Numbered from the stretch's first letter, positions 45,622 through 64,000 are shown. The stretch: DNA of 64,000 nucleotides from Candidatus Parcubacteria bacterium (GCA_023130975.1 JAGMAD010000005.1:22933-86932), one strand, 5' to 3'. Numbers and translations: made by a program. The notes: a model not told the origin generated them from the letters alone.

Positions 45622-45622
45622 A

Positions 45623-46372: not shown

Positions 46373-46376
46373 GTTT

Positions 46377-47444: not shown

Positions 47445-47450
47445 GCCTTT

Positions 47451-48752: not shown

Positions 48753-48756
48753 AATT

Positions 48757-49752: not shown

Positions 49753-49756
49753 AATT

Positions 49757-50527: not shown

Positions 50528-52010
50528 AAATTTTTCGCAATAAATTAATTCTAAATAAGAATTTATAAAAAAGGAATAGTGCGGCAAAGTAAACTAATAT
50601 TCCTATAATAATTGTGAGAATAACATTAAGATTATAAACCACAGATTGACTAATAACAACAAACATTATTATGCTGGAGAAAATGCCTATAAGTAGGATT
50701 TTAAATAATCTTGAATCAAAAAGAGAAATAAGCGCAAATCTCTTTGAAAATTCTATTCCTAAGAAGAGTATAACAAGATAAGTTATTACAGCAGCTACCG
50801 CAGCACCATAAAGGCTAAAAATAGGAATTAAAATAAGATTTAAGGCAACATTTGTTATAGCAGCAATTAAATTAATCCAAAGATATTTTTTTTGTTGATT
50901 AAAAACAATTAATATCATTAAATAAGGATTATAAAGAAAATTTATTCCTGCCATTATAATTAAAATTTGAAAGGCAAAAATCGAAGGGGCAAAACTCGAA
51001 CCATAAAGAAAATCAATAATTCTTGGGGCAAGAAACAAACCTCCCACCATTATAGGCATAGCCAAAATAATCATTATTTCCATATAATGATTCCATGCTC
51101 TCTGAAGTTTTTCATTTGATTCTTTAAAAAACTTACTTAAAACAGGAAAAAAACTCATAAAAATCAATGTAGCGGGGATTATAGTAACGCCAACAATTCT
51201 TCGAGCAGCATTATACCAACCGGTTTCAGTAATTTGCCCTAGACAACCCATCATTACCGAAGCCACATTTATGAAAATAGTGCCAAAGACGGCAGCTAAA
51301 CCTAAGGGCCAAGAAAGTTTAAAAAATTTTTGCCAGACAGCTTTGTTCCAGCTTAAATTTAAAGAGTGAATGCGGAAATGAAAAAACAATAGAATAAAAC
51401 TTAAGGCAATTAAATTAGTAAATAAATAGCCGTAACTTAAATTCTCAATCGAAGGAAATTTAAAAAGAATAAAAAGAACTATACTAACTATTATTAGGGA
51501 TTGAAAAATCTTAGCCCCACATTCATATTCCATTCGCTGACGAGCTCGCAAAAAAGCATAAATAATACTAAAAAAATTACTAATTAGAACATAAACTCCT
51601 AAAAGCAAGATGATTTTTTGGATGACAGGATCTGGAGTAATAAAAAATGAACTAATTAGGATTAAAAGCAACGCCCCAATACTTAAAAGAATTTTTAAAG
51701 AAAGGATTGCTGAATATTCTTTTTCGGTTTCTTTATCTCGAGAAAATTCCCGAATAGTAATTTCAGAAAGCCCAAACTCAGAGATAATGGCAAGCATTGA
51801 AACAAAAGATAAGGCAAAAGTAAATTTTCCAAATTCAGTTGCTCCTAAAATCCGAGCGATATAAATAATCAAAATTAACCCTAAAAGGCGAGACACTCCT
51901 TCAGCTGCAGCCAACCAAAAAGTGTTTTTTAAAATCGTTTGCCTAACAGTTTTATTATCAAAGAACAATGATTTCAATGACTTAATATCTGTAAAATTTT
52001 TAATGTCCAT
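50517..52010 (-). CDS. Wzx-type polysaccharide flippase (MOP superfamily)
   Basis: 497 aa with about 14 TM segments. The N-terminus TILKNTFWLAAAEGVSRLLGLILIIYIARILG is typical of Polysacc_synt. Confidence 0.8.
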   Translation of the reverse strand: MDIKNFTDIKSLKSLFFDNKTVRQTILKNTFWLAAAEGVSRLLGLILIIYIARILGATEFGKFTFALSFVSMLAIISEFGLSEITIREFSRDKETEKEYSAILSLKILLSIGALLLILISSFFITPDPVIQKIILLLGVYVLISNFFSIIYAFLRARQRMEYECGAKIFQSLIIVSIVLFILFKFPSIENLSYGYLFTNLIALSFILLFFHFRIHSLNLSWNKAVWQKFFKLSWPLGLAAVFGTIFINVASVMMGCLGQITETGWYNAARRIVGVTIIPATLIFMSFFPVLSKFFKESNEKLQRAWNHYMEIMIILAMPIMVGGLFLAPRIIDFLYGSSFAPSIFAFQILIIMAGINFLYNPYLMILIVFNQQKKYLWINLIAAITNVALNLILIPIFSLYGAAVAAVITYLVILFLGIEFSKRFALISLFDSRLFKILLIGIFSSIIMFVVISQSVVYNLNVILTIIIGILVYFAALFLFYKFLFRINLLRKIYGY

Positions 52011-52016
52011 ATTGTT

Positions 52017-52823
52017 TTAAACTCTCCATTTTCTCAAAGCTCCAGAATACCTCTCCCAGGTTCCGCAGTCTGTCCATCTACCTTGAAATTTCAAAGCGTT
52101 TAATTTTTTTTCTTGGACTAATTTAGGAAAGATATCTGTTTCAATCATAGTGAATTTAGGGACAGTATAACCCGCCTTGACGCGATAGCGAGGCAGGTAA
52201 TTAAAAATTTCCGGAGACAACAAATAAAGCCCTGAATTAATATAGTTCGTAGGCGGATTCCCTGCCCATCCAAATTTTTTCAAAATTTGGGAGGGTGAAG
52301 GTTTTTCCAAAAACTCTTTAACTTTTTCTTTCTCGCAAACTACTACTCCATAATCCTGAGGATGAGGAACCTTTACTAAAGCAATAGTTGCTGGCTCTTG
52401 ATTGCTTTGATGAAAACTTGCCATTTTATTCAAATCTATTTCTTTTAATTCATCACCATTAGTCAAAAAAAATGAACTACTTGAAAGCCAGTCCTTTAAA
52501 AGAAAAACTCCGCCGAAAGTGCCTAATGGTTTTTCTTCCTCAAAAATTTTAATTTTATTTTTAGGATAATATCTTCTTTTCCACCAATCAAAGTCCTCTC
52601 TAAATTCTTTATTGATTAAAACAGCAATTTCCTTGACTCCTTGTTCTCTAAATAAATCAACTAAATAATTGATAATTGGTTTTTTCCTAATAGGAAGTAA
52701 GGGTTTTGGGATTTCCTTTGTTACTGGATATAACCGGGTTCCTTTTCCTCCAGCTAATATTATTGCTTTATAATTTGATAAATTATTTTTTACCATAATA
52801 GACACTGATTTATATTCTACCAC
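52017..52823 (-). CDS. Sugar-phosphate nucleotidyltransferase
   Basis: AIILAGGKGTRLYPVTKEIPKPLLPI signature. The start is ambiguous (52823 or the internal Met at 52796). Confidence 0.8.
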   Translation of the reverse strand: MVEYKSVSIMVKNNLSNYKAIILAGGKGTRLYPVTKEIPKPLLPIRKKPIINYLVDLFREQGVKEIAVLINKEFREDFDWWKRRYYPKNKIKIFEEEKPLGTFGGVFLLKDWLSSSSFFLTNGDELKEIDLNKMASFHQSNQEPATIALVKVPHPQDYGVVVCEKEKVKEFLEKPSPSQILKKFGWAGNPPTNYINSGLYLLSPEIFNYLPRYRVKAGYTVPKFTMIETDIFPKLVQEKKLNALKFQGRWTDCGTWERYSGALRKWRV

Positions 52824-53062
52824 TTTTCAATGGTTCTTACAGCTTTTCTTTTTATTTTTTGATATGCTCTTATAGCTTTGTTCTCTGCTTGAGGCGAAAC
52901 CAATCTTAAAATCTCCTTACCCCAGATCCTATATCTGCCGCCAACTTTATTAGCTTTAAGAATGCCATTTTTTAAATGGCGTTTAATAGTGCTTTCGCTT
53001 ATCTTTAAAAAACTCCGAGCTTCTTCGGTTGTATATATTTCATTGGGATTTATTTCTTTCAT
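52817..53062 (-). CDS. Excisionase/MerR-type helix-turn-helix DNA-binding protein
   Basis: YTTEEARSFLKISESTIKRHLKNGILKANKVGGRYRI shows the HTH_17 pattern. Confidence 0.65.
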   Translation of the reverse strand: MKEINPNEIYTTEEARSFLKISESTIKRHLKNGILKANKVGGRYRIWGKEILRLVSPQAENKAIRAYQKIKRKAVRTIEKW

Positions 53063-53068
53063 TGTCTT

Positions 53069-53097
53069 ATTATATTAAAAGCAAAAGACCCTGTCAA
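53069..53097 (-). promoter_or_regulatory. Canonical promoter TTGACA-N17-TATAAT, 6 nt from the ATG (leaderless)
   Basis: The minus strand reads TTGACAgggtcttttgcttttaaTATAATaagacaATG. Confidence 0.6.
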
Positions 53098-53194
53098 TAG
53101 GGGTCAATAAGGTTCAAATGAATTTGCTCATCTTAGAAATAAGATTTTTCTTAAAATCTTTCAAATTTAAAAATTTTTGCAAGCACTCATTCTA

Positions 53195-53203
53195 TGCTAT
53201 AAT
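53195..53203 (+). promoter_or_regulatory. Extended -10 TGCTATAAT, 6 nt from the yraN ATG (leaderless)
   Basis: The plus strand reads tctaTGCTATAATttcaatATG. Confidence 0.5.
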
Positions 53204-53209
53204 TTCAAT

Positions 53210-53623
53210 ATGATAATCTCTAAGAAACAAACAGGAGAAATTGGAGAAAGAATTGCCGAGAATTTTTTAAAGAAAAAAGGATATAAAATTTTGGACAGGA
53301 ATTTTTTCACTCGTTTGGCTTTGGGCCCTAAAACCGGAGAAATTGATATTATTGCTGAGAAAGAAGAAACAATCTCATTCGTAGAAGTTAAAACAATAGA
53401 AATCTCCCCTCGCGGCTTCGCCGCAAGGGGAGATTTTATCCCACCAGAGCAAAAAGTTAATTTCCAAAAACAAAGAAAAATAATAAAAACTGCTCAAATC
53501 TGGCTTTCCAAAAACAAAATGCCCCTGAATAAAAAATGGCAGATTGATGTAATCTCAATAAAAATAGATTTAGATTTGAAAAAAGCTGAAATTAAACACT
53601 TTCAAAACGCTTTTGGAGAATAA
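53210..53623 (+). CDS. yraN: YraN-family (UPF0102) endonuclease-like protein
   Basis: GEIGERIAENFLKKKGYKILDRNF...GEIDIIAEKEETISFVEVKT. I chose the ATG at 53210 because the ORF-track start at 53177 is TTG. Confidence 0.75.
   Translation: MIISKKQTGEIGERIAENFLKKKGYKILDRNFFTRLALGPKTGEIDIIAEKEETISFVEVKTIEISPRGFAARGDFIPPEQKVNFQKQRKIIKTAQIWLSKNKMPLNKKWQIDVISIKIDLDLKKAEIKHFQNAFGE
53401..53435. repeat. 35-nt GC-rich palindrome in frame inside yraN
   Basis: AATCTCCCCTCGCGGC-ttc-GCCGCAAGGGGAGATT, with 15 of 16 bp paired. It encodes ISPRGFAARGDF. Confidence 0.65.
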
Positions 53624-53627
53624 CTTA

Positions 53628-53646
53628 TTAGCTTAGTTAGCTTGCT
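53628..53646. repeat. 19-bp direct repeat copy 1 (TTAGCTTAGTTAGCTTGCT) at the 3' end of the epimerase gene
   Basis: Identical to 54612-54630. It overlaps the epimerase stop codon region. Confidence 0.8.
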
Positions 53647-54587
53647 AACTTATTCCTGAACCACTCCACTGTCTCTTTCAATCCCCTATCTAAATTATAT
53701 TTCGGCTGACAGCCAAGCTCTTTTTTTGCTTTTTTAAAATCTAAACAGCTTCTTTTCTGCTCACCAGGTTTTTCAGGAATATGAATCTCTTTACAATTTA
53801 AATCAGCCAACTTTCTAATTTTTCTAAAAATAGTATTAATACTGGTTTCATTTGCTGTCCCAATATTAAAAACCCCGATTTTGTTTTTCTTCAAAGCCAA
53901 TATATTCGCTTCAACCACATCATTAATATAAACAAAATCCCGGGTTTGTTTTCCATCACCGTTTATTGTTGTTTCTTTACTATTTAGCATTTTATCGCAG
54001 AAAATGGCAATTACTCCTGCCTCTCCTTTTGAATTTTGTCTGGGTCCATAAACATTTGACAAACGCAAAGATACATAAGACAGACCAAAAACTTTATAAT
54101 AATAATTTAAGTATTTATCAAAAACCAATTTTTCAATCCCATATGGCGAAACAGGCATTTCAGGATATGTTTCTGGAGTAGGAATAATATCAGCGTCGCC
54201 ATAAATGGCACCGCCAGTAGAAGCAAAGATTATTTTAGAAGCGAATCTATGCGAACGATTAGGCGAAAGAACGCGAATAAAATTCTGAATTATATTTAAA
54301 GAACCGAGAATATTAATTTTGGCATCTTCAATTGGATCCTCAACTGATTTTCTTAAATCAATTTGAGCCGCTAAATGAAAAACTGTTTCTGGTTTTTCTT
54401 TTTTAAAAACATCGGAAATTTTAGGACTCCTGATGTCCAATTTATAAAATTTGGCTTTAGGATTCAAGTTTTTTTTAGTTCCGGTAGATAAATTATCAAT
54501 CACCACCACTTTATGATTTTCTTTGATTAATCTATCTACTAAATGACTTCCGATAAAACCAGCTCCCCCAGTGACTAATATCTTCAT
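53637..54587 (-). CDS. NAD-dependent NDP-sugar epimerase (GalE-like extended SDR)
   Basis: MKILVTGGAGFIGSHLVDRL, and SPYGIEK (the YxxxK motif). Confidence 0.88.
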   Translation of the reverse strand: MKILVTGGAGFIGSHLVDRLIKENHKVVVIDNLSTGTKKNLNPKAKFYKLDIRSPKISDVFKKEKPETVFHLAAQIDLRKSVEDPIEDAKINILGSLNIIQNFIRVLSPNRSHRFASKIIFASTGGAIYGDADIIPTPETYPEMPVSPYGIEKLVFDKYLNYYYKVFGLSYVSLRLSNVYGPRQNSKGEAGVIAIFCDKMLNSKETTINGDGKQTRDFVYINDVVEANILALKKNKIGVFNIGTANETSINTIFRKIRKLADLNCKEIHIPEKPGEQKRSCLDFKKAKKELGCQPKYNLDRGLKETVEWFRNKLAS

Positions 54588-54589
54588 AC

Positions 54590-54629
54590 TTAGTTAGCTT
54601 AGTTAGCTTAGTTAGCTTAGTTAGCTTGC
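54590..54629. repeat. (TTAGTTAGC)4 perfect 9-nt tandem repeat plus TTGC, in a divergent promoter region
   Basis: The units are 54590-98, 54599-607, 54608-16 and 54617-25. It starts 3 nt from the epimerase ATG and is followed by TTATAAT and the plus-strand Wzy_C gene. Confidence 0.9.
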
Positions 54630-54662
54630 TTATAATCTTTATTTTTTATATCATAAAACAAT

Positions 54663-57035
54663 ATGGAAAACAATATCGTTGAAAATAAAATAAAATGGGT
54701 TTATCTTCTGGGCTTTTTTTTAATTTTGGCCTTACCGCTTTTGAATCTACCGCCCTGGTTCTCGCCGCCTGACTGGGGGAAAACCATTGTTTTTAGGATT
54801 ATTCTATCTCTAATGATTTTTGTTTTTCTATGGCAAGTCCTTTTCCAGAAATTAAATGATAATTTATCATTGATCATTAAAAATATATTAAATAAGCAAA
54901 GTAAGGTTTTTTTAAGTTTCTGGCTCTTGATTGCTTTCTTAGGAGTTTACTTCTTGGCTACCCTATTTTCTCAAGACCCATATTTCAGCTTTTGGGGATC
55001 TCCTTACCGTGCCGGTGGATTTCTTAATTTCGCTTTCTGTATAATTTTTGCTATTTTAGCTTTTTTAATTCTCCGAAAATCTGACTGGCAAAAAATCTGG
55101 GATTTTAGTATAATTATTGGAATTTTTGTCTCATTTATTGCTATCTTTCAGCAACTCGGTCTTTTTAGTAAGGTAGTTATTCCTTTTTCCGGTAGAGCGC
55201 CTTCTACTATCGGCGGACCAATATTTTTGGCAATTTATCTTTTGCTTTTATTTTTTCCTATCTTATTTTTTGGTATTAGAGAAAAAAATCTTGTTAAGAA
55301 GTTTTTTTATTTTTTTGCTCTTTTATTATTTTTTTATGTTATCTTAAATACTGGAAGCCGAGCCGCTTATTTTGGATTATTAATTGGAATCTTTTATTTT
55401 GTTCTTTTCTACCCTGTTAAATTCCACTTTGCGGCACCCAGCCTTTTACAGAAAGGCGGGGTATTTAACAGGGTGGACCCCCACACCAAAAAGCTTTTTT
55501 TAGTCAAAATCTTTTTTGGAATCCTTTTGGTTTTAGGAATTTTGGGAGTTTATTATTTGAATGCTGATTACCAAGTCCCTCAATCTTTTCAAGAAAACAA
55601 GATTTTTAAAACAGTCAATTCAAGATTATCTATCAGTTTAGCCATAAAAGATCCTCGTTTCTCCAGTTGGGAAATTGCTTTCAGGGCAATGAAAAAAAAA
55701 CCGATTTTGGGTTATGGGCCGGAAAATTTTTCAATTGGTTTTGATAAGCATTATGACCCTTCTTTGCCATACATTGATCCGGATTGGGGCAGTTGGTATG
55801 ACCGTGCCCATAATTTTATTTTTGATATTGGGGTTACTGTAGGAATTTTAGGTCTGATTATTTACCTTTCCCTTTTTGCAGTTTTATTCTCTGGATTACA
55901 AAAACTAAAAAAAATTAAACCAGAAAAAATAATAATATATCATGGAATTCAAGCTGCTTTCTTAGCTTATTTGGCAGCTAATTTCTTTAGTTTTGATACT
56001 TTTTCAACCTACTTAATATCGTTTTTAATAATTGCTTATAGTTTAACTTTAATAAATCAATCAGAAAAAAAGCAAAATGAAATCATTAAACCAAAAATTA
56101 GAAGTGTCCAAAAACTCACGATCGTGAAAATTTGGACACTTTTAAAAAAATATAAAAAAGCAATTATTGTTATTTTATTTTTATTCTTAATCTGGTTTAT
56201 CTGGGCTTGTAATATCAAACCTTTTTGGATTAACAAAGAAATCCGTTCTACTAAAACTCAATCTCAAATTGGGAATTATCAACAAGGCCTGAAACAATTA
56301 GAAAGCGTCTTGGATTCTCACACTTATTTAGACAGTTATTTAAGATTAAATTATGTTGAGCTTATTAGCCAAAACCTAGAAAAAACTCCGCCGGCTTTTC
56401 AGGGAATTTTAGTGGAAAAAGCAATCAATGCTTTAAAGGAAAATACTGAAATCAGACCTTATTATACCAGAAACTGGTTATTGCTGGGAAATTATACCAA
56501 TGTTTTGATTGAGAAAGGAAAAAAAAACCTAAGAGGAGAAGCATATTACTATTTTGAAAAAGCTCTTCAATTAAGCCCTAAGCACTTAGAAATTTTCATT
56601 GGTCTGGCAAAAACCGATTTATTAACCAATGATTATTTAGGAGCAAAAAATAATGCCCAAAAATGCATCAATTTAAATTCAAAAGTTGGAGAATGCTGGT
56701 GGTTAATGGCTATAACTAATATCTATTTGAATAACATTGAAGAAGCCCAGGGAAACATAGAAGCAGCAAGAAAAGCAATATATCCTGTTGGCTCAAAATC
56801 CTCTACTGCTCAACTTATAAATGCCTATAATTACATCAAAAACTATGAAGAAATAGTTAAAATTTATCAAACATTAATTTTGCAAGAACCAAACAATGCT
56901 CAATATCATTTCTCCTTAGCAGTTTATTATAAAGAACTGGGTAATAATGAAAAAGCAAAAAAAGAAGCTCTAAGGGCTTTAGAGCTAATGCCAGAAGCAA
57001 AGAAACAAATAGAAGAGTTTTTAAAAACTCTTTAA
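54663..57035 (+). CDS. O-antigen-ligase-like (Wzy_C domain) polytopic membrane protein fused to C-terminal TPR repeats
   Basis: NTGSRAAYFGLLIG and YDRAHNFIFDIGVTVGILGL show the Wzy_C pattern. The C-terminal ~250 aa has TPR-like repeats (YYFEKALQLSP, AVYYKELGNNEKAKKEALRALEL). Confidence 0.75.
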   Translation: MENNIVENKIKWVYLLGFFLILALPLLNLPPWFSPPDWGKTIVFRIILSLMIFVFLWQVLFQKLNDNLSLIIKNILNKQSKVFLSFWLLIAFLGVYFLATLFSQDPYFSFWGSPYRAGGFLNFAFCIIFAILAFLILRKSDWQKIWDFSIIIGIFVSFIAIFQQLGLFSKVVIPFSGRAPSTIGGPIFLAIYLLLLFFPILFFGIREKNLVKKFFYFFALLLFFYVILNTGSRAAYFGLLIGIFYFVLFYPVKFHFAAPSLLQKGGVFNRVDPHTKKLFLVKIFFGILLVLGILGVYYLNADYQVPQSFQENKIFKTVNSRLSISLAIKDPRFSSWEIAFRAMKKKPILGYGPENFSIGFDKHYDPSLPYIDPDWGSWYDRAHNFIFDIGVTVGILGLIIYLSLFAVLFSGLQKLKKIKPEKIIIYHGIQAAFLAYLAANFFSFDTFSTYLISFLIIAYSLTLINQSEKKQNEIIKPKIRSVQKLTIVKIWTLLKKYKKAIIVILFLFLIWFIWACNIKPFWINKEIRSTKTQSQIGNYQQGLKQLESVLDSHTYLDSYLRLNYVELISQNLEKTPPAFQGILVEKAINALKENTEIRPYYTRNWLLLGNYTNVLIEKGKKNLRGEAYYYFEKALQLSPKHLEIFIGLAKTDLLTNDYLGAKNNAQKCINLNSKVGECWWLMAITNIYLNNIEEAQGNIEAARKAIYPVGSKSSTAQLINAYNYIKNYEEIVKIYQTLILQEPNNAQYHFSLAVYYKELGNNEKAKKEALRALELMPEAKKQIEEFLKTL
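55411..55474. repeat. 64-nt nested palindrome in frame inside the Wzy_C gene
   Basis: The outer 12-bp inverted repeat is ACCCTGTTAAAT and ATTTAACAGGGT. The inner one is GCCTTTT/GAAAGGC. It is followed by CCCCCACACCAAA, which is identical to the recJ element terminus. Confidence 0.6.
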
Positions 57036-58180
57036 AGCTGGCTAATCTGCGACTGGATTAAAATAATTAGCTGATTTAGAAGTTCAATAATCATTTGTTG
57101 AACTTCTTTTATTTTTGCTTTAAGTTCCTGTTCGTTCATTTCGGAAATCGGTTTTTCTTCCTCTTCTTCCTCTTCTTCCTCTTCTTCGTCAATAGGTGGG
57201 TATTCACAAGAACCATCATCTCTTGTTGCTTCAGGATTGTAGTTTAAGGCATTAGAATCTATGCAACCTTCTATCACTAATTCTGGGAAATTAACTTCTA
57301 CGGTAATAGAATCTCCATCTGTTTCAGTATTATTGAGCCAATCAGCTGATTTTGTTTTAAGAATATAATCACCTTCTGTAATATCCTGCCATTGATATTC
57401 CCAGGTTCCATAATTGGAACTAGTTGAATCAACTTCATACCAAACATTATTGATGCCTATCTTTACCCAAGAAGGAGTTGAACCGCCTTGGTCACGAGCT
57501 ACGCCTTTGATAGTATAATTCTCAGTATCAATGATTGAATTATTTTCTGGTTCAGTAATAACTGTTTTTGGAGCAAGATTATCAATAACAAAATCGCGGA
57601 TTGTTTGAGAATAGGAATTAACAATGGCTTCGTCACTGGGACCATTGTTTTTTGATTCCATAAAGATGCCTAAGTCCCCTATATCAAAATCGCCATTGCT
57701 GTTTTCATCGTATAATATTGGTATTCTTAATTGGATAGAGCGATTAGCAGTGGCATGTTTCCATATCTCAACGCTTACAAAAATTCTTAAGCCCTCTAAG
57801 GACACTAGCTCTTCTAAATTATCTAAATACCAGTTATTATTTAAACCATTAAAAGTAAAAGTGCCTAATTCTTTATCTTTTTCTAAACCTTGAAAACCAG
57901 GAGTGTCATCATCTTTCCAAAGTTTAAATCTTTCAATATCATAAAAATCTTTAGCTGTCCCTATATTTTCCAAAGCAATGGCTAAAAGTTTATCTTCTCC
58001 ATTTCTTCCTGAAGGAATTGTCAAATCCATTACCAATTTATCAAACTCTTGAGGATAACAATAACTACTTGGCGCTTGATGATTGGTAAAATCACTGTTT
58101 ATTAATGCCTTAGCAGAACTGGTTCCGAAAAAAGAAAAAATAATAAAACTAACAATTAAAATTTTATAAGAATTTTTCAT
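57032..58180 (-). CDS. Secreted protein with beta-sandwich-like regions, a poly-Glu linker and a C-terminal PISEM coiled coil
   Basis: Signal peptide ILIVSFIIFSFFGTSSAKA. Cys-bracketed motif CIDSNALNYNPEATRDDGSCEY, then EEEEEEEEEEEKPISEMNEQELKAKIKEVQQ. Confidence 0.5.
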   Translation of the reverse strand: MKNSYKILIVSFIIFSFFGTSSAKALINSDFTNHQAPSSYCYPQEFDKLVMDLTIPSGRNGEDKLLAIALENIGTAKDFYDIERFKLWKDDDTPGFQGLEKDKELGTFTFNGLNNNWYLDNLEELVSLEGLRIFVSVEIWKHATANRSIQLRIPILYDENSNGDFDIGDLGIFMESKNNGPSDEAIVNSYSQTIRDFVIDNLAPKTVITEPENNSIIDTENYTIKGVARDQGGSTPSWVKIGINNVWYEVDSTSSNYGTWEYQWQDITEGDYILKTKSADWLNNTETDGDSITVEVNFPELVIEGCIDSNALNYNPEATRDDGSCEYPPIDEEEEEEEEEEEKPISEMNEQELKAKIKEVQQMIIELLNQLIILIQSQISQL

Positions 58181-58191
58181 AGAGATGAAAA

Positions 58192-58866
58192 TTATTTAAG
58201 TTTTTTTAATTCTTCAAGGTCTATTTTAGCACCTTCATTGTTCGGATCCAACTCTAAAACTTTTTCATAATACGGGATAGCCTTTTCTTTTTGGCTAGTA
58301 TCTTTGTAATAAACAGCTAACATTGAATAAAAATCTACCGGCGCTTCTCCAAATACTTTTTTATTGTCTTCTATAGCTTTTAATAAAAATCCTTCAATCT
58401 GGGGATACTTTTCTTTTAGATGAAAACGATATAAAGTTTTCAACTCTCGGTAAGCATTTCTCCAGTTAGGATTAACTTCGATTATCTTTAAATACATCTT
58501 TTCAGCATTTTCATATTCTTTCTGTTGATTATAAATATCTCCTAAATTATTAAGTATTAAAGTATTAGTAGGCTGTATTTCCAAAGCCATTAGATAAACC
58601 TTTTCTGCTCCGTCTAAATCCTGCACTTGATATTTTACCTGGGCAATAGCTATTAAAGCTAAATGGTCATTAGGGTTTGCTTTTAAACTATTTTTTGCAT
58701 CATCAAATTTAATTTGCTGGTTTTCAGTTAAAATTACTCCTTCAGGCAGAGAAAAAATTTCATTTTCTTCTGAAGCTGGCTGGTGCCTTTGATAAAGAAA
58801 AAATCCTGCTACTGCTATAAGCAGAATTAAAACAATAAGAAAAAAGATTTGATATTTTTTTGACAT
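58192..58866 (-). CDS. Membrane-anchored TPR-repeat protein
   Basis: An N-terminal TM segment (IFFLIVLILLIAVAGFFLY), then several 34-aa TPR-like repeats (AEKVYLMALEIQP, AEKMYLKIIEVNP, AIPYYEKVLELDP). Confidence 0.7.
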   Translation of the reverse strand: MSKKYQIFFLIVLILLIAVAGFFLYQRHQPASEENEIFSLPEGVILTENQQIKFDDAKNSLKANPNDHLALIAIAQVKYQVQDLDGAEKVYLMALEIQPTNTLILNNLGDIYNQQKEYENAEKMYLKIIEVNPNWRNAYRELKTLYRFHLKEKYPQIEGFLLKAIEDNKKVFGEAPVDFYSMLAVYYKDTSQKEKAIPYYEKVLELDPNNEGAKIDLEELKKLK

Positions 58867-58939
58867 ATTTTTGTTCTTTATATTTCAATCTTCTATTTTA
58901 TATCAGCATATTTATATTACCATAAGTAAAAAATAAAAC

Positions 58940-58969
58940 AAATCCCGCCCCGAATTCGGGGCGGGATTT
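58940..58969 (-). terminator. Strong rho-independent terminator after the 1248-aa protein gene
   Basis: Perfect 30-nt palindrome AAATCCCGCCCCGAATTCGGGGCGGGATTT. On the minus strand it is followed by GTTTTATTTTTT. Confidence 0.8.
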
Positions 58970-59025
58970 TAACCCATTCAGCTCACAAGGAAGCCAAATG
59001 AGAAATCAAACAGAATTAACAGAAT

Positions 59026-62000
59026 TTAGTAGATCAACGAACCACCGGTAACTGGCAATTTCTTAGTAAGAGTGCTATCAATTTCAACAGCTGCGCTATT
59101 ATTCTCCCATTCTATACCCGAAGTAGTAGCATTATAACTACTACTAGAGTGCGGCCCTAAAGTCAACTGGATACTAAGTGTAGTCAGGGCACCGGTAGTA
59201 TCACCAAAGATTCTGATAGTCTTGGTAGTCCCTTCAGCAATCTGTAGGGTAGTTGAGAAGGCAACTATATCGTTGTGGGCTAAAGCACCACTATTATCAC
59301 CAACTGAGAAGCAATAGGCATTAGCGTCAGTTGGAGTTGGATCAAGTATAGTGTAGGTATTACTAGTGCTTAAAACTGCATCCCAATAGGCATCAAAGCC
59401 GGATTGGGTTATCGTAGCATAGGTTGTACCAAGATCAGAACTCTTAATGGTTAAACTACCTGTACCAGAAACAGTCGCTGTACCAGCTACACAGAACTCC
59501 ATTTCGTTAATAGTAATGTCATCACCAACAGCCTCAAGGTCTAATTCCATTACCTCTTTATTAGCGCCAGCTGTCTGGGCACCAGAAGGTGAACCAGAAG
59601 CAAGACTGGCTACTAAAACACCGTCATAGAGGTATTGAGTGTAGGAGGCAGCAATTGTTCCGGCTGTAGTAGCAGTGCTGTTTATCCAACCAGAAGTTCC
59701 ATCATTAACAATTGTCGTACCAGAAGAAACTCCATTAGCAGTCATATAGTAACGAATAGTGCCAGCAGATGAGGCAGCACCATTTGCTCCCCACTCACTG
59801 TAATCACCATCTGAATCACCCAAACCAACCTCTACTGTATCGGCATCAGTTAGAGAAATCTTATCAACCAAATCAACTTTCATAGTTAAGGTCTTGTAAG
59901 TTGATTTTGGTACGGTCAATGTCCCGGATGTTAGTGAGATAAGTTTTTTCCCGTTGTTTGTTGCGTCTAATGTGTAACCAGCAGAATTACCCAGTATGTC
60001 TCCATCCAAGTATAACTTTACCTTGGCGACATTGGCACCACTCCTGGTTCCTTCAGTAGCAATATAGAAGTTAGTTATTGTGATGTCTTCATTGACGGCG
60101 TACAACCTGTATTCCATCATTGAATTACCAGTTGCGCCAGCAACGAATTGAGCTGCAGCTGGCCTGTCAGCAGAAACAGTTATTTTCAATGTTCCTACAG
60201 AACCAATTGTCTGTTCCTGACCTGTGCCAGTGTAGGTCTCGCCAATTGCAGAGCCGGTTGACCAACCAGTTGAAACAACGTGATCAGTGGTATTAGCAAT
60301 CTTGAAGGTGTGAGTAGTACTAGCTGTATTATTAACCACATCTGCCTTCAAGGCTAACCTCTCAGTTGTTCCTGCAGTAATTCTCAAAGGAGTCCTTAAG
60401 GTGAAAGTAACTATATTGGCATTAGTGGCTGTTGAGTTAGTGGTTTCCAGTTTAGTATCCCCATCAAATAATTCTAGGTTGTTAATTCCTGTATATGTGG
60501 TCGTACCTCCTGTTACTGTATCTGTGGTTTTTATAGTAGTCACTTTTACATCCTCACCTGAAGCACTAGCGTCTAAGTCAAAGTAGGCAAAGACTGCGTC
60601 TTGGGCACTAATTACTATTGTTCCGGCAATCGGAACAGAAGCAGTAACGACTGCTAAAGCAGGTCCTAGAATTGTCATCGTGTTAGCAGTAACTGCGCTA
60701 GTACCCGGAGGCACATCAGTTCCGGAGGAAGTTGTATAAGTTGTCTTTCCAGAAGTAGCTCCTTTGGCAGTAATACTACTAGCTGGCAGATTAACAACAA
60801 CTGTTGTGCTAGTAAGAGTATCAGTACTATAAGAACTGGCAACATTAGCCTTAATATGGACAGTAGTAGTTCCAACCGGAAGCGAGTAGGAATCAGTGAA
60901 AGTTAAGTTTTGATTACCATTTTGGGTAGTTGTAGTACAATCTTGCGGACCAAATAAAGCATTTCCGCTGTCGTCGTAACCAGTTACATTGGTGTAGTAA
61001 ATTGGCCTACCACTACTGGCAGCGGTCAACGTAACCTGAGTTGAGGTCACATTAACTCCTTCACCACCAGCAACAAAGTCAAAAGCGGCTAATTCTTCTT
61101 GACTACCGCCTAAAGCAATGTTTCCAGTAGCTGGAGTTTTGCTTGATTTAGAAACTGTCAAATAACCCTGATTAATGGTTTGGGGCGTACAATAATAAGT
61201 TGTAAGACAGAAATTGTTGCAAGTAGGAGTAATTCCAAAACCATAAGTTATCCCAACCATATCAATTGTATACGCGGATCCATCCCATAAATCAAAGGTT
61301 AAAGTTCTTCCAGATCCTGCAACCAAGGAAGCTAAAATGCTTAATTCAACATAACCACCTTTTGCAACTTCAATATTTAAGTTGCTGAAGACAGCTTTTC
61401 CATCAGCAGGAAGAGTGGCTAAAGTGCCTATAGTTGTACCAGTAGTGTCATTGACTAATTTTAAGTCTTTAACATCAGTGGTAGCGGCAGTACCATTCTT
61501 AATTGCTGTTACTTGGGTAATCTTTAGACCCTCGGCAGAACCAGCCATTATTTTAACCTGAGTAAATCTGATGTCTGCTTCAGACGGATCCACGGTTAAA
61601 TCGCTATCGTTTCTAGTTCCGCTTGATCCATCGTATAAAACGGCTGTGCCAATGGTTATAGTGGAGATGTAAGCCATGCTATTCCCAATAATTGGGAAAG
61701 TTCCGGTAACTGCAGCAGTAGTAGTAATATCAGAAGCTGAGTCAATAGATAACTGGATTATATTTCCATTGTAGGTTGCTGAAGCAGCAATCATAGTTGC
61801 GGCTAAGGTAATGGTTTTAGTAGTACCAGCCGGAACATTAATAGAAATATTACTAAAGGTTGCCTTATGGTTTGAACCTAAGCTCTGGCTTGTTCCAATC
61901 TGAATTGAGCCATCATATAGCTTGACATTAGAAACAGCTGCGTCTAGGCTTAATCCTTTCCTAACAACTTTTAAGCCGGTAATCGTAACGTCACCATCAG

Positions 62001-62772
62001 TTCCGGCAGTAAAGTTTACTTTCGTAAATGGTACATTAGCAGAACCACCAGGAACACTAGTCATAGCTGGAGTGTCATCAGCTAAGCTTACATTTAAACC
62101 AGCACCAACAACACAACTGGCGTCAGCCACACACTGGGTGGTGGCCACTCCGTCACAAGCATCGGTTGCAGCGCCTTCCTCTGGAGTACAGGTTCGGGTT
62201 TGCTGCATTTGGGTGGCAGTACAATCACCGCCTCCGCAAGCAACATTTGCCCAATCAGTACAATCACAACCAGTAGGAGTTACGTCGCCCTCTAAAAGCT
62301 CATTAAGTTTAGTTCTGGTAGTTGAACCAACATAACCGGTTCCAGAAGTTAAACCCCAAGAAGCTAATACTTCATCAGCGTATTTTTCCTGGAATTTAAT
62401 AACTCCTGCTTTGGTCAAAGGACCAAAATAAGAAGTTTCATTTCCTGGAGAACCAGCGCCAGTATCACCTAACTTTGTGTCAGAAGCAGTGTTCAAAACA
62501 ATCTGTAAACATTTAACATCGTCGCCAGTCATTCCTTGACTTAAATTGCGGTCAAAGCTTGTGATTTCACAACCTTCAACGGTTGGAGTTATGTCGCCGC
62601 CAAGATCAGCTAACTGCTCCTGTAATTCAGTCAATTGAGCCAATAAAGCATCAATTTGAACCTGCAATTCTTCAGCAGTTATTGCTTGAGCCGGCATTAC
62701 AACCATACCCATCATCATTGATGCGCAAGCCAAAGTAGTAAAACTAGCAACGATTTTTTTCATTTTAGACAT
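59026..62772 (-). CDS. Giant secreted cell-surface repeat protein (S-layer/surface-array candidate) with an N-terminal coiled coil and a PG-binding-like anchor
   Basis: Signal peptide ending PAQA. Coiled coil AEELQVQIDALLAQLTELQEQL and a PG_binding-like segment. A Cys-rich knot is followed by at least 6 repeats of about 110-130 aa rich in T/A/G/S/V. Composition and GC content differ from all neighbouring genes. Confidence 0.7.
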   Translation of the reverse strand: MSKMKKIVASFTTLACASMMMGMVVMPAQAITAEELQVQIDALLAQLTELQEQLADLGGDITPTVEGCEITSFDRNLSQGMTGDDVKCLQIVLNTASDTKLGDTGAGSPGNETSYFGPLTKAGVIKFQEKYADEVLASWGLTSGTGYVGSTTRTKLNELLEGDVTPTGCDCTDWANVACGGGDCTATQMQQTRTCTPEEGAATDACDGVATTQCVADASCVVGAGLNVSLADDTPAMTSVPGGSANVPFTKVNFTAGTDGDVTITGLKVVRKGLSLDAAVSNVKLYDGSIQIGTSQSLGSNHKATFSNISINVPAGTTKTITLAATMIAASATYNGNIIQLSIDSASDITTTAAVTGTFPIIGNSMAYISTITIGTAVLYDGSSGTRNDSDLTVDPSEADIRFTQVKIMAGSAEGLKITQVTAIKNGTAATTDVKDLKLVNDTTGTTIGTLATLPADGKAVFSNLNIEVAKGGYVELSILASLVAGSGRTLTFDLWDGSAYTIDMVGITYGFGITPTCNNFCLTTYYCTPQTINQGYLTVSKSSKTPATGNIALGGSQEELAAFDFVAGGEGVNVTSTQVTLTAASSGRPIYYTNVTGYDDSGNALFGPQDCTTTTQNGNQNLTFTDSYSLPVGTTTVHIKANVASSYSTDTLTSTTVVVNLPASSITAKGATSGKTTYTTSSGTDVPPGTSAVTANTMTILGPALAVVTASVPIAGTIVISAQDAVFAYFDLDASASGEDVKVTTIKTTDTVTGGTTTYTGINNLELFDGDTKLETTNSTATNANIVTFTLRTPLRITAGTTERLALKADVVNNTASTTHTFKIANTTDHVVSTGWSTGSAIGETYTGTGQEQTIGSVGTLKITVSADRPAAAQFVAGATGNSMMEYRLYAVNEDITITNFYIATEGTRSGANVAKVKLYLDGDILGNSAGYTLDATNNGKKLISLTSGTLTVPKSTYKTLTMKVDLVDKISLTDADTVEVGLGDSDGDYSEWGANGAASSAGTIRYYMTANGVSSGTTIVNDGTSGWINSTATTAGTIAASYTQYLYDGVLVASLASGSPSGAQTAGANKEVMELDLEAVGDDITINEMEFCVAGTATVSGTGSLTIKSSDLGTTYATITQSGFDAYWDAVLSTSNTYTILDPTPTDANAYCFSVGDNSGALAHNDIVAFSTTLQIAEGTTKTIRIFGDTTGALTTLSIQLTLGPHSSSSYNATTSGIEWENNSAAVEIDSTLTKKLPVTGGSLIY

Positions 62773-62796
62773 TTATCTAATTTATCACTAATATTT

Positions 62797-62824
62797 TTAC
62801 TTGTTTCTTTATAGAAACAAGTAA
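62797..62824. promoter_or_regulatory. Perfect 11-bp-arm palindrome about 25 nt upstream of the giant gene ATG
   Basis: TTACTTGTTTC-tttata-GAAACAAGTAA. It could be an operator or a 5'-UTR stem-loop. Confidence 0.4.
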
Positions 62825-63008
62825 TTCTATTAGCGATTTTCAACTTTTTTTCACTGTTATCGACCTTAAACATCTTTTGAATATAAAGAATTCTTTTTTG
62901 CTTTTAGCAAATATTCAGAAAATGTCTTTAATAACAGTTTCTTTTGTTTTTTTTGTCGACCTTTTTCACAACCTTATTAAAATTGGTTGTTTTTAAAATA
63001 ATAAAAAA

Positions 63009-63212
63009 CTATTTTTTAATAGCTAATGCTTCTTCTAATATCTTAACTCGCATTTCTAACTTTTCAAACTCATTTTTATGAACAAGATTTTCTAATCTTG
63101 TTTCAATTCTTTCTAATCTATTATCCACTAAATCAAACCTTTCATCTACTTTATCAAAACCCCTTTTTATCATTCCAGCCAAATCTTCAATTGTAATATT
63201 TTCGTTTGCCAT
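63009..63212 (-). CDS. Small coiled-coil hypothetical protein (67 aa)
   Basis: ORF-track ORF with an ATG start and a heptad-rich sequence. No recognisable family. Confidence 0.4.
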   Translation of the reverse strand: MANENITIEDLAGMIKRGFDKVDERFDLVDNRLERIETRLENLVHKNEFEKLEMRVKILEEALAIKK

Positions 63213-63244
63213 AACAAAAGATTAGAAGTATTCTTCCTATGTTC

Positions 63245-64000
63245 TTAATAACTCAAAAATAGTATTTTGGCAAGCGCCTCCTGGTAATTCTCATCATCAA
63301 AAAGCTCTTTTGCTTCCTTAAGCAATTCTTCCTGTTCAGAATTCAGCGCTCTATCTTCCAATTCTTTAATTTCTCGCTCAACTAAGGTTTTATAATAAGA
63401 ATTTATTGATTCATCGTATTCTTCACTATCAATTTTTGTAGCTAATATCTCTTCTACTGTTTCTTTTTGTTTTTCTATTGCTTCAACTTTTTCTTTAATT
63501 TCTTTGGCTATTTCACCATCATTTTCTACTATTGCCACTTTTTTCAAGCTTTCAGCTGTTTCTCTCATAACTTTTTCTACTTCTTGAACAGCTGAGGCCA
63601 GATTTTTGCCTCTATTTTCTTCAGCTATCTTTGTTAATTCATCTAATTTCTTTTGAGTTAATTCCAATTGGACTTTAGGTTTTTCTGTTTCTGAAGCTAA
63701 ACTGACTTTTGCTTGCTCGCTAATTTTCTTTACTGAATAAAGTAAGTCGCCAGGCAAAGCATTTTGAGCAAAACTGAAAACACCTATTAAAAAACAAAAA
63801 CAAACCGCTGTGGCTAAAGCCGGCTTTAAAAAAGGCCTAAACCTAAAAATTGAAAATGCTTCTAAGAACCGTTCTCCAATTGTAACAGAGGCCTGTTTTT
63901 CGCTTATTAATGGTTCTGACAAAATCTTTGCTTTTGTCAAAATAACCCAGTCCTTTCTGGGTTTAATTTGCTGGAGTTCTTTAATTTTTCTAATAACTTC
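63245..64000 (-). CDS. DUF5667-like membrane-anchored protein, 5'-partial (the frame stays open to the window end)
   Basis: The ORF-track start at 63940 is TTG. The same frame reads EVIRKIKELQQIKPRKDWVI from 64000 without a stop. A TM segment is followed by the PGDLLYSVKKISEQAKVSLA motif, typical of DUF5667 from memory. Confidence 0.5.
   Translation of the reverse strand, partial: EVIRKIKELQQIKPRKDWVILTKAKILSEPLISEKQASVTIGERFLEAFSIFRFRPFLKPALATAVCFCFLIGVFSFAQNALPGDLLYSVKKISEQAKVSLASETEKPKVQLELTQKKLDELTKIAEENRGKNLASAVQEVEKVMRETAESLKKVAIVENDGEIAKEIKEKVEAIEKQKETVEEILATKIDSEEYDESINSYYKTLVEREIKELEDRALNSEQEELLKEAKELFDDENYQEALAKILFLSY

What the first reader, a model, noticed from the sequence alone, without database searches (positions are those of the whole stretch)
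59026..62772. Giant compositionally atypical surface-repeat protein with N-terminal PG anchor and Cys-rich knot
In hand-counted samples the gene is much more GC-rich than its surroundings: about 42 percent GC in 59041-59100 against about 25 percent in 46381-46440. The product is dominated by T, A, G, S and V and nearly lacks the K, E, I and N bias of all neighbouring proteins.

Its architecture, in order:
- a Sec signal peptide (...MPAQA);
- a coiled coil;
- a PG-binding-like domain;
- a Cys-rich segment (CDCTDWANVACGGGDCTATQMQQTRTCTPEEGAATDACDGVATTQCVADASC);
- at least six repeats of about 110-130 aa, each ending in a pattern like F..L.I.VPAGTTKT..L.A.

The gene has its own strong terminator and an upstream perfect palindrome. 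These features fit an abundant S-layer-type protein. Horizontal origin is an alternative explanation for the composition.
Basis: partly seen in the sequence, partly recalled or inferred. Interest (0 to 1): 0.6.

Follow-up and report, generated by a model that had tools for sequence, protein, structure and literature searches.

The report
Predicted S-layer protein of a Patescibacterium
This gene encodes a 1248-residue wall-anchored surface protein of an ultra-small (CPR/Patescibacteria) bacterium, an orthologue of a family already predicted to form the cell's S-layer; its odd GC content comes from its amino-acid make-up, not from foreign origin.

Summary
ORF 59026-62772 (-) encodes a 1248-aa protein with:
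- a signal peptide;
- a three-heptad coiled coil;
- a PG_binding_1 domain;
- an 8-Cys linker;
- six homologous beta-sandwich modules of about 155-195 aa each, not 110-130.

A strong terminator and an upstream palindrome are also present.

The excess GC (0.422 against about 0.33) is explained by amino-acid content. The GC expected from the protein sequence with the window's own codon usage is 0.416, and GC3 is 0.30. Horizontal transfer is not needed.

The protein is 36% identical, end to end (E=1e-133), to UniProt A0A1G2EN61. That protein is the founder of the "six Ig-like domain" Patescibacteria S-layer protein family predicted in bioRxiv 10.1101/2024.05.28.596244. Homologues are among the most expressed secreted genes in Paceibacteria (PMC10936435).

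- The Cys-rich segment is one of many interchangeable linker cassettes.
- The N-terminal anchor is swapped for SLH or another domain in relatives.
- The gene sits in a conserved cassette: ECF sigma, DUF5667, S-layer gene, TPR protein, secreted 382-aa protein.
- A GGTCGA box lies in a structured, covarying element upstream of the gene in 26 of 27 loci. It matches no Rfam family.

The parts
59026..62772 (-). Coding sequence of the 1248-aa surface protein (stop codon included)
   Evidence: ORF list. An identical protein, P0001, is in the public collection, and 579 homologues were found.
62683..62772 (-). Signal peptide, aa 1-30 (…VMPAQA|I)
   Evidence: Read from the sequence. The same N-terminus is kept in relatives. 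No signal-peptide predictor was run.
62599..62682 (-). Short coiled coil, aa 31-58, three heptads (L36 I40 L43 L47 L50 L54 L57)
   Evidence: Read from the sequence. It is conserved in the family consensus as TxxELQxQIxxLxAxLxxLQxQLA.
62287..62577 (-). Peptidoglycan-binding domain (PG_binding_1), aa about 66-162; Pfam core aa 82-131
   Evidence: PF01471 scores 23.2 bits on the whole protein and 32.2 bits on the N-terminal fragment, against a cut-off of 23. The region is helical with pLDDT 88-97 in the AF2 model.
62107..62286 (-). Cys-rich linker, aa 163-222, with 8 Cys. One variant of a hypervariable linker between anchor and body.
   Evidence: Cys positions. pLDDT is below 50 here. Relatives carry poly-E, PT repeats, CGNGxCE modules or nothing at this place; the same CxCxxW…TRTCTP module is seen in P0003, P0004 and P0111. 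No Pfam match.
61645..62106 (-). Beta-sandwich module 1, aa 223-376
   Evidence: hhalign among modules. The single-module AF2 model has pLDDT 94.1, pTM 0.88 and 12 strands. Foldseek finds only generic beta-sandwich matches.
61165..61644 (-). Beta-sandwich module 2, aa 377-536
   Evidence: hhalign. All-beta in the AF2 model.
60658..61164 (-). Beta-sandwich module 3, aa 537-705
   Evidence: hhalign. AF2 model.
60190..60657 (-). Beta-sandwich module 4, aa 706-861
   Evidence: hhalign. AF2 model.
59617..60189 (-). Beta-sandwich module 5, aa 862-1052 (with an insertion)
   Evidence: hhalign. AF2 model.
59029..59616 (-). Beta-sandwich module 6, aa 1053-1248 (C-terminal, with an insertion)
   Evidence: hhalign. 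AF2 model. [quoted passage not shown]
58930..58969 (-). Intrinsic terminator: 13-bp stem with 9 G-C pairs, 4-nt loop, then a T-run
62784..62837 (-). Hairpin just upstream of the start codon. Its core is the perfect 12-bp palindrome at 62797-62824.
   Evidence: The palindrome is kept in L012, with a G-C to A-T double change, and in L004.
62853..62938 (-). Large conserved hairpin (ACTGTTAT…ATAACAGT). It carries the proximal AAGGTCGA box at 62860-62867.
   Evidence: Nearly invariant in four genomes whose proteins are 47-64% identical. RNA fold of 62770-63000 has z = -7.9. One compensatory pair.
62956..62963 (-). Distal AAGGTCGA box
   Evidence: AAGGTCGA has only two matches in the 64-kb window, and both lie upstream of this gene.
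63245..63940 (-). Upstream neighbour: DUF5667 membrane protein, part of the conserved cassette. In relatives it follows an ECF sigma gene, which here would lie beyond the window end.
   Evidence: PF18915, E=5.5e-9. Synteny.
63009..63212 (-). Small 67-aa coiled-coil ORF between the DUF5667 gene and the surface-protein gene
   Evidence: ORF list. Conserved in L001/L005 (65% identity) and L004 (38%).
58192..58866 (-). Downstream neighbour: 224-aa TPR protein with an N-terminal hydrophobic segment
   Evidence: TPR families. Found downstream of the gene in 14 of 17 loci.
57032..58180 (-). Downstream neighbour: secreted 382-aa protein (weak Big_7 match, poly-Glu tract, C-terminal helix)
   Evidence: Found downstream of the gene in 15 of 17 loci.
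54663..57035 (+). Convergent Wzy_C (O-antigen-ligase-like) plus TPR membrane protein, at the edge of a glycan-synthesis cluster
   Evidence: PF04932, E=7.9e-19. Kept in the closer relatives L001/L005, L004, L006 and L012.

Best explanation
The gene encodes the cell-wall-anchored surface-layer (S-layer) protein of a Patescibacteria (CPR) bacterium close to 'Ca. Nealsonbacteria'/Minisyncoccales.

Proposed mechanism:
1. The precursor is exported by Sec and cleaved after AQA (aa 30). This step is inferred.
2. A three-heptad coiled coil and a PG_binding_1 domain hold the N-terminus non-covalently on the cell's own peptidoglycan. The domain is shown; the binding is inferred.
3. A variable linker, here an 8-Cys segment, acts as a spacer (inferred).
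4. Six homologous beta-sandwich modules of about 160 aa form the body (shown). In orthologues this body has been predicted by AlphaFold-multimer to assemble into a p6 lattice of hexagonal spiral pyramids, with the C-terminal module at the six-fold apex. That point is taken from the literature and was not tested here.

The Thr/Ala/Gly/Ser/Val-rich, Lys/Glu-poor composition belongs to these beta-sandwich modules, and it alone raises the GC content. The strong terminator and the long, structured, conserved upstream region fit a separately transcribed, highly expressed gene (inferred).
For: **Homology to the predicted S-layer family**
- BLASTP against A0A1G2EN61 (P0214) gives E=1e-133 and 36% identity over 1154 columns.
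- That protein and four others of 1173-1274 aa are listed as Patescibacteria S-layer proteins with six Ig-like domains.
- The family is large and confined to Patescibacteria-labelled sources: 579 and 830 hits of about 1100-1600 aa.

**Architecture**
- PG_binding_1 domain.
- Six homologous modules.
- AF2 model of aa 61-1248: mean pLDDT 88.1, a helical anchor followed by an all-beta body.
- Single-module model: pLDDT 94.1.

**Anchor exchange**
- Relatives with the same six-module body carry an SLH domain instead of PG_binding_1. P0181 scores 32.9 bits for PF00395, and P0182 and P0187 are annotated likewise.
- Others carry an unrelated N-terminal domain of about 170 aa.
- This is the modular pattern the preprint describes for S-layer proteins.

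**Expression and microscopy in relatives**
- PGBD proteins are among the five most expressed secreted genes of Paceibacteria, and the preprint calls them homologues.
- An apparent S-layer was seen on Nealsonbacteria cells by cryo-EM.

**Native, not foreign**
- GC3 is 0.30. Expected GC is 0.416 against 0.422 observed.
- The cassette is conserved.

**Own terminator**.
Against: - No experiment links any member of this six-module family to a lattice. The family's S-layer role rests on AlphaFold-multimer models in a preprint.
- The only measured Patescibacteria lattice constant, 13 nm, fits the shorter three-domain protein (13.5 nm) better than the six-domain one (18.5 nm), as the preprint itself says.
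- Lattice formation could not be tested here, because no multimer prediction was available.
- Expression in this organism is unknown.
- The window holds no ribosomal-protein genes, so codon adaptation could not be scored.
- The single module has no close solved relative. The best Foldseek match has E=7e-5 and TM 0.3-0.6, so the fold alone does not distinguish an S-layer protein from an adhesin.
Confidence: 0.7

Rival explanations
1. It is a wall-anchored adhesin that attaches the epibiont to its host cell, as Kuroda et al. read the homologous PGBD proteins. It would be a string of Ig-like modules projecting from the wall, not a closed lattice.
For: - PMC10936435 interprets the highly expressed PGBD/Ig-like proteins as host-attachment factors.
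- The whole-model Foldseek hits include adhesin-type multi-Ig proteins: PrgB Ig-like domains, CFA/I pilins and RrgB.
- The single-module hits include carbohydrate-binding and cohesin-like sandwiches.
Against: - The same Foldseek list equally includes an archaeal S-layer protein (8c8o), and all TM-scores are below 0.2.
- The fixed number of six modules and the near-constant length across the family fit a lattice unit better than an adhesin, in which repeat number usually varies (an inference).
- Orthologues were predicted to form p6 lattices.
- The two roles are not exclusive: an S-layer is also the contact surface.
Confidence: 0.2
2. The gene was recently acquired from a GC-richer donor, and that explains its composition.
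For: Gene GC is 0.42 against about 0.33 for the window.
Against: - GC2 is 0.51 against about 0.30 in the neighbours, but GC3 is 0.30, inside the neighbours' range.
- The GC expected from the protein sequence with native codon usage is 0.416, against 0.422 observed.
- Flanking genes and the upstream DNA are conserved in the same order in related genomes.
- Homologues show the same composition throughout the phylum (consensus).
Confidence: 0.03
3. It is a secreted peptidoglycan-acting enzyme, since PG_binding_1 often accompanies cell-wall hydrolases.
For: PG_binding_1 is typically found on wall hydrolases. One JGI record is named 'peptidoglycan hydrolase-like protein' (P0087).
Against: - No catalytic family matches in Pfam, NCBIfam or PDB sequences.
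- Everything after the linker is beta-sandwich repeats.
Confidence: 0.03

Closest known systems
Predicted six-domain S-layer protein of Patescibacteria (founder UniProt A0A1G2EN61, Ca. Nealsonbacteria; bioRxiv 10.1101/2024.05.28.596244, Table S2)
   Same: - Homologous end to end: E=1e-133, 36% identity.
- Same order of parts: signal peptide, coiled coil, PG-binding domain, linker, six beta-sandwich modules.
- Similar length, 1131 against 1248 aa.
- Same phylum.
   Different: - The linker differs. The founder has a CGNGVCETGE…CPADC module where this protein has an 8-Cys CxCxxW…TRTCTP module.
- This protein has longer modules 5 and 6.
- Lattice formation was predicted for the founder and was not tested for this protein.
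Haloferax volcanii S-layer glycoprotein csg (six Ig-like domains, hexagonal spiral pyramid)
   Same: According to the preprint, it has the same overall plan of six tandem Ig-like assembly domains in a left-handed spiral forming p6 pyramids.
   Different: - No detectable sequence relationship: the PDB sequence search found nothing relevant.
- The orientation is opposite. In the Patescibacteria model the C-terminal domain is at the apex.
- The anchor is an N-terminal peptidoglycan-binding domain rather than a C-terminal membrane or lipid anchor (the archaeal anchor is from general knowledge).
SLH-anchored S-layer proteins of monoderm bacteria (e.g. Bacillus/Geobacillus Sap, EA1, SbsB)
   Same: - An N-terminal non-covalent cell-wall anchor is followed by beta-rich assembly domains.
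- Some members of the present family actually carry SLH in place of PG_binding_1.
   Different: - This protein has no SLH domain.
- It binds through PG_binding_1, presumably to peptidoglycan itself rather than to a secondary cell-wall polymer (inferred).
- The assembly modules are unrelated in sequence.
Bacterial Ig-like repeat adhesins (Big_1/invasin-intimin, PrgB)
   Same: Tandem beta-sandwich modules on the cell surface. PrgB Ig-like domains rank third in the whole-model Foldseek search.
   Different: - No Big-family HMM reaches its threshold.
- The module number is fixed at six.
- There is no beta-barrel or LPXTG anchor.

Membership tests
Patescibacteria six-domain S-layer protein family (A0A1G2EN61 type) | Significant full-length sequence homology to the founder protein | tested here: met
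   BLASTP against P0214 (= UniRef100_A0A1G2EN61) gives E=1e-133 and 36% identity over 1154 columns.
Patescibacteria six-domain S-layer protein family (A0A1G2EN61 type) | Six tandem Ig-like/beta-sandwich assembly domains | tested here: met
   All 15 pairwise profile comparisons of the six segments give 94.6-99.3% probability. The AF2 model shows an all-beta body, mean pLDDT 88.1.
Patescibacteria six-domain S-layer protein family (A0A1G2EN61 type) | Signal peptide and a cell-anchoring segment | tested here: met
   The signal peptide is read from the sequence. PG_binding_1 scores 32.2 bits against a cut-off of 23.
Patescibacteria six-domain S-layer protein family (A0A1G2EN61 type) | Self-assembly into a two-dimensional p6 lattice | not testable with these tools
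   Only monomer prediction was available. The lattice is predicted for orthologues in the preprint.
Patescibacteria six-domain S-layer protein family (A0A1G2EN61 type) | Very high expression or abundance | not testable with these tools
   There are no expression data for this organism. Homologues are reported among the top five secreted transcripts. Codon adaptation was not computable because the window has no ribosomal-protein genes.
PG_binding_1 (PF01471) domain proteins | HMM score above Pfam's gathering threshold | tested here: met
   23.2 bits on the whole protein and 32.2 bits on the N-terminal fragment, against a cut-off of 23.
SLH-domain S-layer proteins | SLH domain (PF00395) present | tested here: not met
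   No SLH hit in this protein at E<=1. SLH is present in the relatives P0181, P0182 and P0187.
Archaeal Ig-like S-layer glycoproteins (H. volcanii csg, N. maritimus SLP) | Detectable sequence homology or specific structural homology | tested here: not met
   The PDB sequence search gave no relevant hit. In the Foldseek search, 8c8o ranks 19 with TM 0.15, no better than integrins or alpha-2-macroglobulins.
Big-type bacterial Ig-like adhesins | Big_x/invasin HMM match above threshold | tested here: not met
   Scanning each module alone at E<=10 gave only fn3_5 (13.7 bits) and Big_7 (12.6 bits), both far below their cut-offs.
Recently transferred genomic island | Synonymous-site composition unlike the host genome, and a patchy, non-syntenic distribution | tested here: not met
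   GC3 is 0.301 against 0.275 expected. Gene GC is 0.422 against 0.416 expected. The cassette is conserved in 14-16 of 17 loci.

The most novel reading that the evidence does not exclude
The S-layer gene of Paceibacteria-type Patescibacteria carries a previously undescribed structured 5' leader.

Its form in most relatives is an outer stem, a single-stranded AAGGUCGA box, and an inner GC hairpin. In this window it is a rearranged version with two AAGGTCGA boxes inside a very stable fold.

This leader could control the stability or translation of the cell's most abundant secreted mRNA. Control might run through a factor encoded in the conserved flanking cassette (ECF sigma, DUF5667, TPR protein, 382-aa secreted protein). 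That would make S-layer output responsive to envelope state or host contact.
Probability: 0.35. Interest if true: 0.55.

Novelty: new member of a known kind. Interest (0 to 1): 0.38.

Why it matters
Patescibacteria make up a large share of bacterial diversity and live as ultra-small epibionts, so their outermost layer is the interface with the host. A firm assignment of the gene for that layer lets metaproteomic, cryo-ET and antibody work target it.

This window adds one more orthologue and shows that the striking GC anomaly of such genes is an amino-acid effect. That is useful for anyone who screens CPR genomes for 'foreign' DNA.

The conserved neighbours and the upstream GGTCGA/hairpin element are cheap, testable handles on how the gene is expressed.

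Tried and rejected
- Self-BLASTP of the protein found no internal repeats. Only profile comparison shows them.
- NCBIfam and the PDB sequence search found nothing useful.
- Foldseek of the 1188-residue model returned only generic multi-Ig proteins with TM below 0.2.
- The first cluster look-up gave no useful accessions. The second gave UniRef100_A0A1G2EN61.
- The genome scan with the 43-sequence alignment failed because no stretch was conserved enough. It worked with 15 closer sequences.
- I tested whether the GGTCGA box is the promoter of the neighbouring ECF sigma factor, and rejected it.
  - The sigma genes have their own classic GTAAC-N15-18-CGTC promoter.
  - That pattern is absent upstream of the surface-protein gene and absent from the window.
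  - No fixed -35 partner accompanies GGTCGA.
- I tested whether the downstream 382-aa protein shares a module with the surface protein. Only a non-significant 23-residue helix match was found, at 2% probability.
- Rfam has no family for the upstream element, either in the window or in four relatives.
- The covariance model of the leader, built from relatives, does not hit the window's own variant at E<=1.
- Codon adaptation against ribosomal-protein genes was not possible. None of the ten ORFs scanned for this purpose is a ribosomal protein.
- Literature searches for DUF5667 and for an experimental Patescibacteria S-layer structure found nothing.


Full report
**What is there**

The window carries one long ORF at 59026..62772 on the minus strand, 1248 aa with an ATG start. 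The four 1-kb bins across it have GC 0.39-0.425. The rest of the window ranges from 0.25 to 0.39, mostly about 0.33. Thr, Ala, Gly, Ser and Val make up 52.6% of the product, against 19-33% in the other 50 ORFs. Lys, Glu, Ile and Asn make up 17.6%, against 20-45%.

**Why the composition differs**

The GC excess sits at codon position 2 (0.512 against about 0.30 in the neighbours). It does not sit at position 3 (0.301, against 0.18-0.43 in the neighbours). I recoded the protein sequence with the synonymous codon frequencies of the other 49 ORFs. This predicts a gene GC of 0.416 against 0.422 observed, and a GC3 of 0.275 against 0.301 observed. The anomaly is therefore an amino-acid effect, and horizontal transfer is not needed to explain it.

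The small residual is a shift towards T- and C-ending codons: GGT 0.50 against 0.27, GAC 0.36 against 0.23, AAC 0.30 against 0.21. This would fit translational selection. It could not be scored, because none of the ten ORFs I scanned for a reference set encodes a ribosomal protein.

**Anatomy of the protein**

- **Signal peptide.** Residues 1-30 have the n-region, h-region and AQA|I layout of a Sec signal peptide (read from the sequence).
- **Coiled coil.** Residues 31-58 carry Leu/Ile at 36, 40, 43, 47, 50, 54 and 57, a clean 4-3 heptad pattern. It is conserved in the family consensus.
- **Anchor.** PG_binding_1 (PF01471) matches aa 82-131 at 23.2 bits on the whole protein and 32.2 bits on the N-terminal fragment, against a cut-off of 23.
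- **Linker.** Eight cysteines lie between aa 169 and 220.
- **Repeats.**
  - Self-BLASTP does not see the repeats.
  - Profiles of the six segments cut from a 43-sequence family alignment match each other in all 15 pairs, at 94.6-99.3% probability and E from 1e-8 to 4e-19, over 129-159 columns.
- **Whole-protein model.** An AlphaFold2 model of aa 61-1248 built on 100 homologues has mean pLDDT 88.1. It shows a helical anchor domain, an unmodelled Cys-rich linker (aa 163-222, pLDDT below 50) and an all-beta body.
- **Single-module model.** Module 1 alone (aa 222-376) models at pLDDT 94.1 and pTM 0.88, with 12 strands.
  - Its best matches among solved structures are weak: E=7e-5 at best, TM 0.3-0.6.
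  - They are generic beta-sandwich accessory domains of GH123 and GH33 enzymes, cohesins, Calx-beta domains and CBMs.
- **Whole-model fold search.** It matches only multi-Ig proteins in general, such as PrgB, integrins, alpha-2-macroglobulins and an archaeal S-layer protein, all with TM below 0.2.
- **No enzyme.** No catalytic family is detectable.

**The family**

The protein has 579 significant relatives among the scored candidates. Nearly all are 1100-1600 aa. Where they are named, the names are hypothetical or 'peptidoglycan-binding' proteins of Falkowbacteria, Parcubacteria, Pacebacteria, Vogelbacteria and other Patescibacteria. A second search from a distant member found 830. The nearest species-representative genomes are a 'Ca. 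Nealsonbacteria' MAG (61%) and a Minisyncoccales MAG (58%).

**Link to the literature**

The preprint bioRxiv 10.1101/2024.05.28.596244 predicted S-layer lattices across prokaryotes. Its main points for this case are:
- By scanning a Nealsonbacteria genome, the authors found a putative S-layer protein with six Ig-like assembly domains.
- The domains follow a left-handed spiral.
- Homologues are numerous across Patescibacteria.
- Table S2 lists A0A1G2EN61 (1131 aa) and four others of 1173-1274 aa.

In the protein collection, P0214 is OGZ27177.1 = UniRef100_A0A1G2EN61. BLASTP of the window protein against it gives E=1e-133 and 36% identity over 1154 columns, starting at the signal peptide. The window protein is therefore an orthologue of that predicted S-layer protein.

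Supporting evidence for the family is indirect:
- In Paceibacteria enrichment cultures, PGBD-containing proteins of similar predicted structure are among the five most expressed secreted genes (PMC10936435). The preprint identifies two of them as homologues.
- Cryo-EM of Nealsonbacteria cells showed an apparent S-layer (bioRxiv 10.1101/2022.04.20.488981).

One caveat comes from the preprint itself. The one measured lattice constant, 13 nm, fits a shorter three-domain protein (13.5 nm) better than the six-domain one (18.5 nm).

- **The Cys-rich segment is not a family feature.** At the same place relatives have nothing, poly-Glu, (DDTG)n, Pro-Thr repeats, CGNGxCExGE…CPxDC modules or other Cys modules. 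The CxCxxW…TRTCTP module of this protein recurs in P0003, P0004 and the distant P0111. It has no Pfam match. It behaves as an exchangeable spacer.
- **The anchor is exchangeable.** Some relatives with the same six-module body start with an SLH domain (P0181 scores 32.9 bits; P0182 and P0187 likewise). Many Falkowbacteria-type members start with an unrelated domain of about 170 aa that has no Pfam match. A constant body with swapped wall anchors is what is described for modular S-layer proteins.

**Context**

I examined 17 loci from relatives, representing 14 distinct contigs.
- Upstream, the gene is preceded by an ECF sigma-factor gene in 16 of 17 loci; the exception has no upstream flank. Between the two lies a DUF5667 membrane protein, and often a small ORF of about 70 aa.
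- Downstream, a TPR protein of about 220 aa follows in 14 of 17 loci, and a homologue of the window's 382-aa secreted protein in 15 of 17.
- A convergent Wzy_C+TPR gene and sugar-nucleotide genes follow in the closer relatives.

The window shows the same order: DUF5667 at 63245-63940, the small ORF at 63009-63212, the TPR protein at 58192-58866, the 382-aa protein at 57032-58180 and Wzy_C+TPR at 54663-57035. The sigma gene would lie beyond the window end.

**Flanking signals**

The terminator at 58969..58940 has a 13-bp stem with 9 G-C pairs and a T-run.

It forms the core of a longer hairpin at 62784-62837 that ends 14 nt before the AUG. It is kept in L012, with a G-C to A-T double change, and in L004.

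The whole 231-nt upstream region folds at -53.7 kcal/mol, z = -7.9 against shuffles. About 100 nt of it are nearly invariant among four genomes whose proteins are only 47-64% identical.

**The GGTCGA box**

- AAGGTCGA occurs only twice in the 64-kb window, and both copies lie in the upstream region.
- GGTCG lies within 130 nt of the start codon in 26 of 27 non-redundant loci, against a background chance of about 0.05 per locus.
- In most relatives the box sits single-stranded between an outer stem and an inner GC hairpin, and the stem sequences differ from locus to locus.
- A covariance model of this element hits exactly once per locus in 18 loci, always just upstream of the gene. It hits nowhere else in 440 kb.
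- On its alignment, 82% of cells pair, against 66.5% in shuffles (0 of 500 reach the observed value). Nine of 12 pairs show double-sided changes. The covariation score is 0.59, against 0.10-0.30 for slid partners. That alignment is fitted to the model, which favours the structure.
- Rfam has no matching family.
- The window's own version is rearranged and is not hit by the model.
- It is not the promoter of the neighbouring ECF sigma. Those genes have a classic GTAAC-N15-18-CGTC promoter of their own. That pattern is absent upstream of the surface-protein gene and absent from the window.

My reading is a structured 5' leader of a highly expressed mRNA. This is an inference, because the transcription start is unknown.

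**Verdict**

The S-layer interpretation is supported through homology to an already described, computationally predicted S-layer family. The horizontal-transfer alternative is rejected.

This is a new member of a known kind. I put the probability that the family really forms the S-layer at about 0.7, and the main rival is a host-adhesion role.

The conserved cassette and the upstream GGTCGA/hairpin element are, as far as the searched literature and Rfam show, undescribed. They are the part worth following up.

Noticed in passing
window 62773-63008 (- strand); L002 9868-9922, L007 5140-5201, L008 5123-5183, L013 5277-5335 and 14 further loci: A conserved element lies upstream of the surface-protein gene.
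- The invariant GGTCG(A) box is present in 26 of 27 loci.
- In most relatives it sits between an outer stem and an inner GC hairpin with covarying stems.
- A covariance model hits once per locus and nowhere else.
- No Rfam family matches.
- The window has a rearranged version with two AAGGTCGA boxes (62860-62867 and 62956-62963).
   Followed up: partly
window 57032-63940; L001-L017: The gene order ECF sigma, DUF5667, (about 70-aa ORF), surface protein, about 220-aa TPR protein, about 380-aa secreted protein is conserved across relatives with 32-64% protein identity. What links these genes functionally is unknown.
   Followed up: partly
L002 7967-7990, L007 3004-3028, L010 3112-3136, L016 3373-3397 and others: A classic ECF-type promoter, (T)GTAAC-N15-18-CGTC, lies directly upstream of the ECF sigma gene in at least 18 loci. 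In L004, L006 and L019 it lies between the sigma gene and the DUF5667 gene. This suggests autoregulation of the sigma/DUF5667 pair. It is not found upstream of the surface-protein gene.
   Followed up: partly
window 62107-62286 (aa 163-222) and the same alignment region in relatives: The linker between anchor and body is hypervariable. Variants include poly-Glu, (DDTG)n, Pro-Thr repeats, CGNGxCExGE…CPxDC modules and the 8-Cys CxCxxW…TRTCTP module of this protein. That module also occurs in the distant relative P0111. Its W…C…C…Q.QTRTC pattern recalls thrombospondin type-1 repeats; this is from memory and was not confirmed by Pfam.
   Followed up: partly
P0181, P0182, P0187; P0014-P0047 (N-termini): Relatives with the same six-module body carry different N-terminal anchors. 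Some have an SLH domain. Others have a domain of about 170 aa (GDLIK…YYY…KRYVFP…SWY) that has no Pfam match.
   Followed up: partly
window 41000-57035: A large glycan-synthesis cluster lies next to the Thr/Ser-rich surface protein. It includes a Wzy_C+TPR protein, an epimerase, a nucleotidyl transferase, a Polysacc_synt flippase and a UDP-glucose dehydrogenase. S-layer glycosylation gene clusters next to S-layer genes are known in Geobacillus (from memory), so the protein may be O-glycosylated. This was not tested.
   Followed up: no
window 57032-58180: The 382-aa secreted neighbour has a run of 13 Glu. It ends in an amphipathic helix (…KEVQQMIIELLNQLIILIQSQISQL) that faintly resembles the N-terminal coiled coil of the surface protein (hhalign 2% probability, not significant).
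   Followed up: partly
window 2643-3323: The release-factor ORF (RF-1 and PCRF domains) is only 226 aa, and its PCRF match starts at profile position 121. The N-terminal part appears to be in another frame, as in the known programmed +1 frameshift of prfB. This was not checked.
   Followed up: no
window 13509-15110 and 10269-10712: Two unrelated genes were noted. One is a TrwB/TraG-type type IV coupling protein with a treble-clef zinc finger. The other is an RNase H/RVT_3 protein.
   Followed up: no
L006, L007, L009, L013; P0105, P0139, P0212: Several contigs and proteins carrying this Patescibacteria cassette are labelled Saccharibacteria, Gammaproteobacteria, Syntrophales, Aminicenantales or Ilumatobacteraceae in their records. 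These are probably mis-binned or mislabelled MAG contigs.
   Followed up: no
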